IMG/VR virus record: IMGVR_UViG_2802429242_000009
Location: 1 to 33,994 of that record
Strand: one strand, 5' to 3'
Source of the DNA: a virus
Lineage: Duplodnaviria > Heunggongvirae > Uroviricota > Caudoviricetes
Length of the DNA: 33,994 nucleotides
Shown: piece after piece, positions 6,001 through 9,000 of the stretch
Position numbering within the stretch: the first letter of the stretch is position 1
Layout of the letters: each line of letters opens with the position of its first letter
Position numbers: made by a program

Positions 6001-9000
6001 ACCGAGAATTGGGTTGGTCATGATGTCTAACATTTTCTGTTCCTCAGATGATTAGCTTTGGTGGTGTGGTAGGTGGGAGACCCATTTCGACCCGCTTCGT
6101 CCGACTTCAATTCGGCAATAGTCCCGCAGGCCTCGCCGCTTTACGTGCGACATATTCCCGTCCATGAACCCTTCACCACACCCCAAAGCCAACTACTCTT
6201 TGGTTCCCGCATTTCGGCGGGACAATCCCATCAATGTTAAAGAGCCTGCCAATCTGTTCCGTTTGGCTACCAGCGTCCTGCTGATGGCTTAAATTTAAGA
6301 TCTCTTTAATTAATGGTCAAGAGTATTTTTGAAGAAAACTTAAATTTTCTTTCGTAACTTAAGTTTGGCTTTGATTTTTAAAGGAAATAAAAAAAAAGGG
6401 GCGAATGCCCCCTTATGGAAGGTTTGCTAGTTTTGCATCGACAACTACGCCGATGATTTTGCAGTTTCCGTTGATCTCGATCATCGGATATTGTGGGTTA
6501 AGTGGTTTTAGAAACTTCCTGCCTGCATCAATAACTAACTTCTTGAAAGTTGCCTCGTTTTCTCCTTCGAGCTTTGCAACTACCAGTTTCCCGTTACGCG
6601 GCTCTACTTCAGGATCGACGAGTATTATCATTCCTTCAGGGATACTGAGACCGGCCGGAGCCGTCATTGAGTCTCCCTTCACGTCCAACCAAAACGAATC
6701 TTCTGAACAGTCTACGGTTGTATCGTACCAGTTATCTATTGCACGCTTATGATATGGTTCCACAGCTTCCATCCAGCATCCTGCGCTCACCCAGCTAATC
6801 AGAGGGTATGACCCTCTTGGATCATGCCTACTGTGATAGGCAATGTTTGAAAGACTTTCCTCTCCTTTCATCAGATAGTCAGGGGAACACTTCAACGCAT
6901 TAGCCAGGGCGAGAAGATTCTCTCCATTTGGCTCTGTCTCAGAGCGTTCCCACTGAGATATGGCAACATTAGACACGCCGACCATCTTTCCAAGTGCGGC
7001 CTGCCTGATCTTGAGTTCTTTTCTCCGAGCGCGAATGCGCTCTCCCATCAATTGAGTTTTCATAGTTAAGACATCTTAAATAAACTTGACTTAAGATTCC
7101 TTTAGTGGATAATTTAAGTGTTCTTTAATTTCGGAGCGAGTCTATGTACAAGAAAGATGTTATCGACCACTTCGGAACCCAGCGTGCTGTAGCTAAAGCG
7201 TTAGGCATTAGCGACGCAGCAGTCTCTCAGTGGAAGGAAGTCATCCCAGAGAAAGACGCCTATCGACTGGAAGTCGTTACAGCTGGCGCCCTGAAGTATC
7301 AAGAAAGCGCTTACCGCAAAGCGGCATAAGCAAATTGCTCTTTAACAGTCATGGTCCTCATTCCCGCCGAAATGCGGGAATACAACGCGCATAAGTTGAT
7401 GCGCATAACTTCTTATTTGTTAAGGAAATACTTACATATGGTTCGTGCAAACAAACGCAACGAGGCTCTACGAATCGAGAGTGCGTTGCTTAACAAAATC
7501 GCAATGCTTGGAACTGAGAAGACAGCGGAAGCTGTGGGAGTTGATAAGTCGCAGATCAGCAGGTGGAAGAGGGACTGGATTCCAAAGTTCTCAATGCTGC
7601 TTGCTGTTCTTGAATGGGGCGTCGTTGACGACGACATGGCTCGATTGGCACGACAAGTTGCTTCGATTCTCACCAATAAAAAACGCCCGGCGGCAACCGA
7701 GCGTTCTGAACAAATCCAGATGGAATTCTGAGGTAATTACTGGATCTATCAACAGGAGTCATTATGACAAAACAACTCAGTCCTTACCAGGACAAAATTC
7801 ACAAACACATACTACGTGATCGCTTCCTGTCCAGCTTCAAGCAGCCTGGTCGATTCCGGGCTGAGTTGGAAAAGGTGAAGCTGATGCAGAAGGAGAAAGG
7901 TCATGAGTAACATATCTAATCTAGCCGAAGCCAGAGAGGCCAGAAGGCTACAACAACCGCATCAAAGCAGCGGTAAGGGGTATGCCTTGCTGCACCGTAA
8001 AATTATGGATGTGCCGTTTTACAAGGACGCAGAAGCAGCACATCTGTGGGTTCACTTAATCCTCAAAGCAAAGCATACGCCTGAGTATGTAATGACTGAC
8101 GCAGGAGAAATTCTGGTAGGCAGAGGTAAGCTACTTGGCGGTAGAAACTCTCTGGCGTTTGAAACAGGACTCAAACCAGATCGCGTTCAGTACCTGCTTA
8201 GAAAGTTCAAAAAACTCGGCATGATTGACTGGGTTTCACACGGTAAATTCTCAGTTTTCTCGGTAGAGAAATATGACGATTATCAGTCAAATTTTGTACC
8301 AGCAGATTACCAGCAAATTACCACCTCAAAGCCAGCAATACCAATGCCTGTAAGCAATACTGTACCAGCAGATTACCAGCAAATTACCACAGATAAAGAA
8401 TATAATAATATTATCTCTAATACTGACGTATTAGAGAGTGCCACAGCAGACAAAAAGTCTGACAAGAAAAAACCTTCCGTTAGCTGTCAGGATGTTGTCG
8501 ATGCTTACCACGAAATCCTTCCTGAAGCGCCAAGAATCCGCGCACTGAATGACAAGCGTAAAAACCAGATCCGAACGTTCTGGCGCAAAGCCGGAGTGAT
8601 AACCCGCCAGCTTGACGGGCATGGGTTCTCGATGCAGGACTGGAGAAATTATTTGAGCTACGTAGGCGAAAATTGCCGATGGATGTTCGAAGAACGCCCA
8701 AACCATCAACGCGGAACCGTCTGGCACAAAAAGGGATTTGATTTCCTGCTTAACGACAATACCTACCTGAAAGTTCGTGAGGGTGAACACGATGACCGAT
8801 AATTTTTATGCGCCGCCCCATAGCATCGAGGCAGAGCAGGCGGTGATTGGTGGATTGCTTCTGGATGATGACAGCAGTGAGCGCGTCCAGAAAGTTCTGG
8901 CGATGCTGAAGCCTGATTCATTTTACGGCCGACCACACAAAATCCTTTTCGAAGAAATAACCAGAATGCACCGGGAGCAAAAGCCAGTAGATGGCCTGAC

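What the first reader, a model, noticed from the sequence alone, without database searches (positions are those of the whole stretch)
6204..7380. Matched nutL and nutR sites with an identical 19-nt boxB
The element TCCCGCCGAAATGCGGGAA occurs exactly twice in the window: on the minus strand after pL (6204-6222) and on the plus strand after cro (7362-7380). Each is preceded at 12-13 nt by the boxA-like GCTCTTTAACA in the correct orientation. The boxB loop (CGAAAT) differs from the lambda GAAAA loop, consistent with the divergent arginine-rich motif of this N protein, implying a distinct N-boxB specificity.
Basis: seen in the sequence. Interest (0 to 1): 0.45.

Follow-up and report, generated by a model that had tools for sequence, protein, structure and literature searches.

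The report
HK620-type nutL/nutR antitermination sites
The two identical hairpins are the left and right N-utilisation (nut) sites of a CUS-3/HK620-like E. coli prophage; the same sequences are already annotated as putative nutL and nutR in the phage HK620 GenBank record, so this is a correct but ordinary finding.

Summary
The 19-mer TCCCGCCGAAATGCGGGAA occurs exactly twice (6204-6222 minus, 7362-7380 plus; none expected by chance). Each copy lies downstream of GCTCTTTAACA, with spacers of 12 and 14 nt rather than 12-13. It folds into a 6-bp stem (8 bp in nutR) with the hexaloop CGAAAU.

The copies sit where nut sites belong. One lies between pL and the N gene; the other lies just after cro and before cII.

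The HK620 GenBank record annotates these same sequences as putative nutL and nutR. CUS-3 shares them, and its immunity region is 98.8% identical to the window.

Phage 21 acts as a natural swap control. Its flanks are homologous and its N C-terminus is about 95% identical, yet both the arginine-rich motif (ARM) and both boxB hairpins differ.

In 160 IMG/VR loci ARM type and boxB type were never mixed. This boxB pair brackets at least seven different immunity regions. The nutL 70-mer is present in 500 of 5,426 complete E. coli genomes.

N binding and antitermination are inferred from homology and linkage. I found no experiment on this N-boxB pair in the open-access library. Verdict: real, ordinary, already known.

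The parts
6235..6245 (-). nutL boxA (GCUCUUUAACA in the pL transcript)
   Evidence: Exact match. Identical to the boxA part of the annotated HK620 nutL. Homologous to the annotated boxA-L of phage 21.
6205..6222 (-). nutL boxB hairpin: 6-bp stem UCCCGC/GCGGGA with loop CGAAAU. Position 6204 is the shared flanking A of the 19-mer.
   Evidence: Identical to the HK620 annotated nutL.
7337..7347 (+). nutR boxA (GCUCUUUAACA), starting 8 nt after the cro stop codon
   Evidence: Same sequence in the HK620 annotated nutR and the phage 21 boxA-R.
7360..7381 (+). nutR boxB hairpin: 8-bp stem here, with the invariant 18-nt core at 7362-7379 and loop CGAAAU
   Evidence: Identical to the HK620 annotated nutR. 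The outer two pairs are not conserved in all relatives.
5574..5873 (-). N gene (99 aa). Residues 1-64 are HK620-type and carry the ARM DDNARNRRRARRQAQ; residues 37-99 are phage-21-type and end in a lambda-like C-terminus.
   Evidence: ORF; start chosen by homology to the CUS-3 and HK620 N genes. phrog_271 'anti-termination protein N-like', E 5.8e-37. Residues 63-99 align to lambda N 75-110 of PDB 6GOV, E 1.5e-4. Pfam N_peptide is below cut-off, E 9e-4.
6292..6320 (-). pL-like promoter (TTGACC, 17 nt, TAAATT), flanked by P22/21-type operator repeats
   Evidence: Operator-like inverted repeats I2, I4, I6 and I14. Homologous to the annotated pL/OL region of phage 21.
7086..7113 (+). pR-like promoter (TTGACT, 16 nt, GATAAT)
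6413..7063 (-). cI/c2-type LexA-like repressor, the immunity gene bracketed by the two nut sites
7144..7329 (+). cro, the first gene of the pR transcript; nutR follows it
7387..7421 (+). Candidate tR1 region: hairpin GCGCAUAAGUUGAUGCGC followed by a U-rich tract, between nutR and cII (ATG 7439)
   Evidence: Read from the sequence. The HK620 record annotates tR1 directly after nutR in the homologous sequence. It did not meet the terminator scan criteria, so it is inferred only.
4785..4806 (-). Intrinsic-terminator-like hairpin in the leftward operon downstream of N (tL-like). It is a plausible target of N-mediated read-through.
   Evidence: 8 bp, 5 GC pairs, T7 tail.

Best explanation
These are the nutL and nutR sites of a P22-like (CUS-3/HK620-type) temperate E. 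coli phage. Transcription from pL and pR produces RNAs that each carry a consensus boxA (GCUCUUUAACA) followed 12-14 nt later by the same boxB hairpin: stem UCCCGC/GCGGGA with loop CGAAAU. The N protein is encoded about 350 nt downstream of nutL. [quoted passage not shown] Its lambda/phage-21-like C-terminus would engage NusA and RNA polymerase. The modified polymerase would then read through tR1 and the leftward terminators into the delayed-early genes. Shown here: the sequences, their positions, the fold, their identity to annotated HK620 nut sites, and the strict co-inheritance of this ARM with this boxB. Inferred: actual N binding, Nus dependence and antitermination.
For: The repeat is exact and non-random, and boxA lies upstream of each copy. 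The hairpin is stable and persists in the whole-leader fold. Positions are canonical: nutL between pL and N, nutR between cro and cII. The HK620 record NC_002730.1 annotates GGCTCTTTAACATTGATGGGATTGTCCCGCCGAAATGCGGGA as nutL and CGCTCTTTAACAGTCATGGTCCTCATTCCCGCCGAAATGCGGGAAT as nutR. CUS-3 has the same sites and the same N. Phage 21 is a natural swap: annotated nut sites in homologous flanks and an N that is 95% identical over residues 37-99, with only the ARM and both boxBs exchanged. Of 80 IMG/VR loci encoding this ARM, 75 have exactly one boxB on the N strand upstream of N and one on the opposite strand, 18/18 nt identical. These pairs bracket at least 7 unrelated immunity regions. In the reverse search, 73 of 79 two-copy loci have the ARM ORF downstream, and most of the remainder are cut off before N by the end of the stretch held. 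In the ARM-by-boxB table, all 75 loci holding the HK620 boxB pair were retrieved with the HK620-type ARM query, and none of the 80 loci from that query holds a phage-21 boxB. Conversely, 72 loci with the phage-21 ARM hold phage-21 boxBs and none holds the HK620 boxB; there are no mixed cases. Divergent N proteins (58-62% identical overall) keep residues 1-21 and the 16-nt boxB core while flanks and C-termini drift. N belongs to phrog_271, and its C-terminus aligns to the lambda N segment seen in the antitermination complex 6GOV.
Against: There is no experimental evidence for this N-boxB pair. The open-access library held no paper with this boxB sequence or on HK620 nut function, and the HK620 annotation itself says 'putative'. 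The boxB is invariant across all copies found, so there is no compensatory covariation to support the stem independently; the only stem change seen is U-A to U.G at the base. Many of the loci are near-identical prophages, so the linkage counts are not independent events. No Rfam family covers the site. The N match to Pfam N_peptide is below the curated cut-off.
Confidence: 0.9

Rival explanations
1. The hairpins are not N-binding sites. They are conserved 'boundary/linker' sequences whose identity is kept at the DNA level because they serve as homologous crossover points for exchanging immunity modules between lambdoid phages.
For: The two copies bracket at least 7 different immunity regions. 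CUS-3 annotates the N-cI intergenic stretch as a 'boundary sequence'. In mEp213 a recombination junction falls inside a boxB. One locus has a nutR carrying a nutL-type spacer.
Against: A DNA linker would not need to be a hairpin, to lie a fixed 12-14 nt after boxA in transcript orientation, or to co-vary perfectly with the N-terminal 21 residues of N. Module exchange at nut sites is better read as a consequence of their conservation than as an alternative function. The two readings are compatible.
Confidence: 0.05
2. The hairpin is a transcription pause, terminator or RNA-processing (RNase III-type) signal rather than a boxB, and the true boxB is another stem-loop nearby.
For: Other hairpins lie next to each copy: CCAAAG..CUUUGG and a long stem at 6058-6187 after nutL, and GCGCAU..AUGCGC after nutR.
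Against: None of those neighbouring hairpins is shared between the left and right transcripts; only boxA and this hairpin are. The hairpin has no U-tract and was not called as a terminator. A 6-bp stem is too short for RNase III. Phage 21 has its annotated boxB at exactly the homologous position.
Confidence: 0.03
3. The sites are true nut sites, but their specificity is not distinct. The GAAA-containing loop and the RRRxRR ARM core would be recognised interchangeably with lambda N and lambda boxB.
For: The ARM core NRRRARRQAQ resembles lambda TRRRERRAEKQAQ (weak alignment). The loop contains GAAA, and lambda-type boxB loops are GAAAA/GAAGA (the lambda-type nutL of mEp213 appears).
Against: The loop has 6 nt rather than 5, the closing pair is C-G rather than U-A, and the stem sequence differs. 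The ARM lacks the Trp that, from my knowledge of the lambda N-boxB structure, stacks on the lambda loop. In nature the ARM is never paired with another boxB type, although lambda-type loci were not sampled in that test.
Confidence: 0.15

Closest known systems
Phage HK620 nutL and nutR (GenBank NC_002730.1, annotated 'putative N-utilization leftward/rightward')
   Same: boxA, spacer and boxB are identical in both sites over the whole annotated features, except for the base immediately 5' of boxA in nutR (C in HK620, T in the window). N residues 1-64 are nearly identical. The position relative to pL, N, cro and cII is the same.
   Different: HK620 has a different immunity region (434/L-like cI, lambda-like cro), a 125-nt nutL-N leader instead of 349 nt, and an N C-terminus of the H-19B/P22 type (..CLPNVAIYAAGYRKSKQLTAR) instead of the phage 21/lambda type.
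Phage CUS-3 (CP000711.1) early region
   Same: 98.8% identical over 81% of 5500-7800. It has the same cI, cro, cII and N type (98% identical) and identical nutL and nutR sequences.
   Different: The nut sites are not annotated there; the region is labelled 'bsq5 boundary sequence'. A different insert lies between nutL and N.
Phage 21 nutL/nutR and N (OL657228.1, annotated)
   Same: The architecture is the same, with homologous flanking sequence (GGCAGGCTCTTTAACAT..; GCAAATTGCTCTTTAACAG..), the same boxA, a hexaloop boxB at the same position, and an N that is 95% identical over residues 37-99. The ARM has the same length with shared A..R..ARR..LARK positions.
   Different: The boxB sequences are UCUCAAC-CUAACC-GUUGAGA and UCACCU-CUAACC-GGGUGA, not UCCCGC-CGAAAU-GCGGGA. 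The ARM is GTAKSRYKARRAELIAERR, not DDNARNRRRARRQAQREQA. In phage 21 the nutL and nutR stems differ from each other; here they are identical.
Phage lambda nut sites and the N antitermination complex (PDB 6GOV)
   Same: The logic is the same: boxA plus a boxB hairpin in the pL and pR transcripts, an ARM at the N-terminus of N, and a homologous N C-terminus.
   Different: From my own knowledge, lambda boxA is CGCUCUUA and its boxB has a 5-bp stem with a GAAAA/GAAGA pentaloop. Here boxA is the full rrn-like GCUCUUUAACA and the boxB loop is the hexaloop CGAAAU.

Membership tests
Lambdoid N-utilisation (nut) site | One site lies in the pL transcript upstream of N and one in the pR transcript just downstream of cro; both lie before the first terminators. 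| tested here: met
   pL 6320-6292(-), nutL 6245-6205(-), N 5873-5574(-); pR 7086-7113(+), cro 7144-7329, nutR 7337-7381(+), cII from 7439.
Lambdoid N-utilisation (nut) site | A boxA element (GCUCUUUA core) lies 5' of boxB. | tested here: met
   GCTCTTTAACA occurs exactly twice, in transcript orientation, 12 and 14 nt upstream of the hairpin. The same 8-mer is annotated as boxA in phage 21.
Lambdoid N-utilisation (nut) site | boxB is a short stem-loop (5-8 bp, loop of 5-6 nt) that is the same or nearly the same in nutL and nutR. | tested here: met
   6-bp (nutL) and 8-bp (nutR) stems with hexaloop CGAAAU; 19/19 nt identical; -10.5 kcal/mol, z = -3.3.
Lambdoid N-utilisation (nut) site | A cognate N protein with an N-terminal arginine-rich motif is encoded downstream of nutL. 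| tested here: met
   99-aa ORF; phrog_271 N-like, E 5.8e-37; C-terminus homologous to lambda N in 6GOV; ARM NARNRRRARR at residues 12-21.
Lambdoid N-utilisation (nut) site | ARM type and boxB type are inherited together across phages. | tested here: met
   75 of 80 ARM loci carry the boxB pair. No ARM/boxB combinations were mixed among 160 loci of HK620 or phage 21 type.
Lambdoid N-utilisation (nut) site | N binds boxB RNA, and N- and Nus-dependent read-through of downstream terminators occurs. | not testable with these tools
   This requires binding and reporter assays. No published test for this pair was found in the library.
HK620-type nut/N specificity class | The boxA-spacer-boxB sequence is identical to the annotated HK620 nutL and nutR, and N carries the HK620-type ARM. 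| tested here: met
   Sequences identical over the annotated features apart from the base 5' of boxA in nutR (C in HK620, T here). N residues 1-64 are 97% identical.
Lambda-type boxB (GNRA-like pentaloop) | A 5-bp stem closed by U-A with a 5-nt loop GAAAA/GAAGA. | tested here: not met
   The loop is 6 nt (CGAAAU) closed by C-G. A lambda-type nutL for comparison is seen in mEp213.
Phage-21-type boxB | Hexaloop CUAACC. | tested here: not met
   The loop length is the same (6), but the loop and stem sequences differ. No phage-21-type boxB occurs in any HK620-ARM locus.

The most novel reading that the evidence does not exclude
The HK620-type ARM and boxB may form a structurally distinct, orthogonal peptide-RNA recognition pair. 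The loop could be a true hexaloop, or a GAAA tetraloop closed by a C.U mismatch, read by an ARM that lacks the lambda Trp. It would then be a further specificity class beside lambda, P22 and phage 21, and would be usable as an orthogonal tethering tag. No experiment or structure for this pair was found in the open-access library.
Probability: 0.5. Interest if true: 0.3.

Novelty: already known. Interest (0 to 1): 0.1.

Why it matters
The finding matters little beyond correct annotation. It confirms that the window is a lambdoid early-control region with N-dependent antitermination. It also shows that the N gene here is a mosaic of an HK620-type RNA-binding head and a phage-21/lambda-type polymerase-binding tail. 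The class is common, with nutL present in about 9% of complete E. coli genomes, yet it appears uncharacterised biochemically. It could therefore supply one more orthogonal N-peptide/boxB pair for RNA-tethering tools, and a clean natural example of co-swapped peptide and RNA specificity when compared with phage 21.

Tried and rejected
Rfam gave nothing for the site, either with gathering thresholds on the whole window or with permissive E-values on 5800-7500; it found only two tRNAs and one chance hit.

Literature searches found no paper on this pair. I searched for HK620/CUS-3 with nut or boxB terms, and for the boxB sequence itself. The HK620 genome paper is not held. The epsilon34 paper discusses only general N-specificity diversity. 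Attempts to cite the boxA consensus from two NusB/NusE papers found no sequence text, so that consensus rests on the phage 21 and HK630 annotations and on my own knowledge.

I looked for covariation in the boxB stem and found none. All ~150 copies are identical in the 16-18 nt core, apart from a U-A to U.G change at the stem base in two divergent loci.

I considered the hairpin after nutR as a covarying tR1. The variants seen are not compensatory.

I considered the 39-aa ORF in the N leader as a type I toxin. Pfam and NCBIfam gave no support; the only match is phrog_7482, of unknown function.

Full report
OBSERVATION

The 19-mer TCCCGCCGAAATGCGGGAA is present exactly twice in the 33,994-base window, at 6204-6222 on the minus strand and 7362-7380 on the plus strand. 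This holds even when two mismatches are allowed, and none of 100 dinucleotide-preserving shuffles produced a match. It is the top inverted repeat in 5500-7800. The boxA pair is the third, and operator-like repeats make up most of the rest.

GCTCTTTAACA also occurs exactly twice, at 6235-6245 (-) and 7337-7347 (+), each upstream of the hairpin on the same strand.

As RNA the element folds into a 6-bp stem (UCCCGC/GCGGGA) with hexaloop CGAAAU at -10.5 kcal/mol, with z = -3.3 and no shuffle as stable. In the nutR context two more pairs form, giving 7360-7381. The hairpin also survives in the minimum-energy fold of the whole 261-nt pL leader.

CONTEXT

The region is a textbook lambdoid immunity and early-control region:
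- an N-like ORF at 5873-5574 (-)
- a pL-like promoter at 6320-6292 (-)
- a terminator after the repressor gene at 6414-6395 (-)
- a LexA-like cI/c2 repressor at 7063-6413 (-)
- a pR-like promoter at 7086-7113 (+)
- cro at 7144-7329
- cII from 7439, followed by O-like and DnaB-like replication genes

nutL therefore lies between pL and N. nutR starts 8 nt after the cro stop codon and ends before cII, which are the canonical positions. The rest of the window is a P22-like (Lederbergvirus) genome most similar to vB_EcoP-720R6, phiv205-1, CUS-3 and Kapi1.

WHAT IT IS

Megablast of 5500-7800 against phage records gives Gally and CUS-3 at 98.8% identity over 81% of the query, and phage 21/DE3 at about 88%.

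The decisive comparison is with HK620 (NC_002730.1). Its record annotates GGCTCTTTAACATTGATGGGATTGTCCCGCCGAAATGCGGGA as 'nutL; putative N-utilization leftward'. It annotates CGCTCTTTAACAGTCATGGTCCTCATTCCCGCCGAAATGCGGGAAT as 'nutR; putative N-utilization rightward' (sequences extracted). Apart from the base just 5' of boxA in nutR (C in HK620, T here), these are the window's two sites base for base. HK630 has them too, with boxA annotated. CUS-3 carries the same two sites and an N that is 98% identical to the window's, although its record does not label the sites as nut.

THE N PROTEIN

The 99-aa product is MTVVITYLADDNARNRRRARRQAQREQAMQEQRLARKIALK... It belongs to phrog_271 'anti-termination protein N-like' (E 5.8e-37). 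It hits Pfam N_peptide only below the cut-off (E 9e-4). Residues 63-99 align to residues 75-110 of lambda N in the cryo-EM antitermination complex 6GOV (E 1.5e-4).

The protein is a mosaic. Residues 1-64 are HK620-type (97-100% identical to the N of HK620, HK140, HK630, mEp213 and some Stx1a phages). Residues 37-99 are phage-21-type (95% identical).

NATURAL SWAP CONTROL

Phage 21 (OL657228.1) has curated nutL, nutR and boxA features. The sequences flanking its nut sites are clearly homologous to the window's (GGCAGGCTCTTTAACAT.. on the left, GCAAATTGCTCTTTAACAG.. on the right), and the N C-terminus is shared. However, both boxB hairpins (UCUCAAC-CUAACC-GUUGAGA and UCACCU-CUAACC-GGGUGA) and the ARM (GTAKSRYKARRAELIAERR) are replaced. 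Both systems use hexaloops at the same position. The two ARMs have the same length and share a few positions. The HK620-type pair therefore looks like a co-diverged sister of the phage 21 pair.

POPULATION TEST

I searched IMG/VR with the first 62 residues of N, a search not conditioned on boxB.
- 379 stretches encoded a relative of the query, and the best 80 loci were kept.
- 75 of the 80 carry exactly one boxB on the N strand upstream of N and exactly one on the opposite strand further upstream, with all 18 nt identical.
- Of the five exceptions, three are truncated contigs. One is mEp213, with a second N gene. One is a locus (L059) whose N gene has unrelated upstream sequence.
- The inter-nut segments fall into at least seven unrelated clusters (1.1-2.8 kb), so the same N/nut module brackets at least seven immunity types. 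The window belongs to the 29-member CUS-3-like cluster.

In the reverse search with the 16-nt boxB core, 73 of 79 two-copy loci have the ARM ORF downstream of one copy. Most of the remainder are cut off before N by the end of the stretch held. Single hits without boxA in environmental contigs look like chance.

A matching set of 80 loci retrieved with the phage 21 ARM gives a clean table. All 75 loci holding the HK620 boxB pair came from the HK620-type ARM query, and none of the 80 loci from that query holds a phage-21 boxB. Conversely, 72 loci with the phage-21 ARM hold phage-21 boxBs and none holds the HK620 boxB. There are no mixed cases. These counts include many closely related prophages, so they are not independent events.

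More divergent N proteins (58-62% identical overall) keep residues 1-21 and the CCCGCCGAAATGCGGG core while spacers, boxA tails and C-termini drift. The only stem change seen is U-A to U.G at the stem base. Because the core never varies, there is no compensatory covariation to report.

This nutL is common: a 70-nt query matches 500 of 5,426 complete E. coli genomes.

MECHANISM

The best-supported mechanism is the standard lambdoid one. Nascent pL and pR RNAs present boxA to NusB/S10 and boxB to the N ARM. The N C-terminus, with NusA and NusG, converts RNA polymerase to a termination-resistant form. That form passes the tR1 region (hairpin 7387-7404 plus a U-rich tract, annotated as tR1 at the homologous place in HK620) and leftward terminators such as the hairpin at 4806-4785. 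The anatomy and the co-inheritance are shown here. Binding and antitermination are inferred from homology to lambda and phage 21.

Whether the specificity is truly distinct from lambda is open. The loop contains GAAA and the ARM core NRRRARR resembles lambda's TRRRERR. Against that, loop length, closing pair and stem all differ, and the ARM has no Trp at the lambda position (that last point is from my knowledge of the lambda N-boxB structure).

RIVALS

A purely DNA-level role as recombination linker sequences fits the observation that these sites bound exchanged immunity modules, and that a junction cuts a boxB in mEp213. It does not explain the hairpin, the fixed spacing after boxA, or the perfect linkage to the ARM. 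It is better seen as a by-product.

A terminator or processing role is unlikely. There is no U-tract, the stem is short, and no other hairpin is shared between the left and right transcripts.

NOVELTY AND VERDICT

I found no experimental work on this N-boxB pair in the open-access library. The only residual interest is as an uncharacterised, probably orthogonal peptide-RNA pair. Interest is 0.1, and the novelty class is 'already known'.

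Noticed in passing
window 5874-6204 (minus strand); ORF 5914-6033 (-); long hairpin about 6058-6187: The nutL-to-N leader is 349 nt here but ranges over 125, 160, ~330, 376, 419 and 579 nt in other phages with the same N and nut, so it is an insertion hot spot. The window's insert carries a 39-aa hydrophobic ORF (MLDIMTNPILGGLVTTFAICFGFTIWSEVDDWMWERKNK; phrog_7482, unknown function) preceded by a strongly folded long-stem RNA (leader fold z = -3.05). Its function is unknown. It might be a small membrane protein moron, or an RNase III-type N-leader structure as in lambda.
   Followed up: partly
L005 / L072 (phage mEp213, NC_019720.1), locus positions about 3600-4270: mEp213 has a lambda-type N with a lambda-type nutL next to cI, plus a second HK620-type N gene about 1.5 kb downstream. 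The upstream boxB of that second gene is cut in half by a recombination junction (TTGCCCTCCGAAATGCGGGAAC), and there is no nutR partner in the locus. It is an orphan N whose role, if any, is unknown.
   Followed up: partly
One IMG/VR locus among L006-L085 (nutR variant list): One nutR carries the nutL-type spacer TTGATGGGATTG between boxA and boxB. This suggests gene conversion or recombination between the inverted nutL and nutR copies.
   Followed up: no
window 7680-7707 (-) and 7725-7752 (-): A strong terminator-like hairpin (12 bp, T-run) and a promoter-like site lie antisense to the 3' end of cII. The arrangement resembles the lambda oop RNA (pO/oop terminator).
   Followed up: no
window 13795-13869 and 13875-13950 (+): Two phage-borne tRNA genes, tRNA-Asn(GTT) and tRNA-Thr(TGT), were found by both Rfam and ARAGORN.
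   Followed up: no
L286 (JAJXBQ010000254.1): A 4.2-kb contig binned into a 'Segatella copri' MAG carries this E. coli-type N and both nut sites. It is most likely a mis-binned enterobacterial phage contig.
   Followed up: no
window 3795-4763 (-): A 322-aa ORF downstream of the tL-like terminator has a long, highly charged E/A/K/R-rich coiled-coil-like middle section (phrog_1376 / phrog_21365, unknown function).
   Followed up: no
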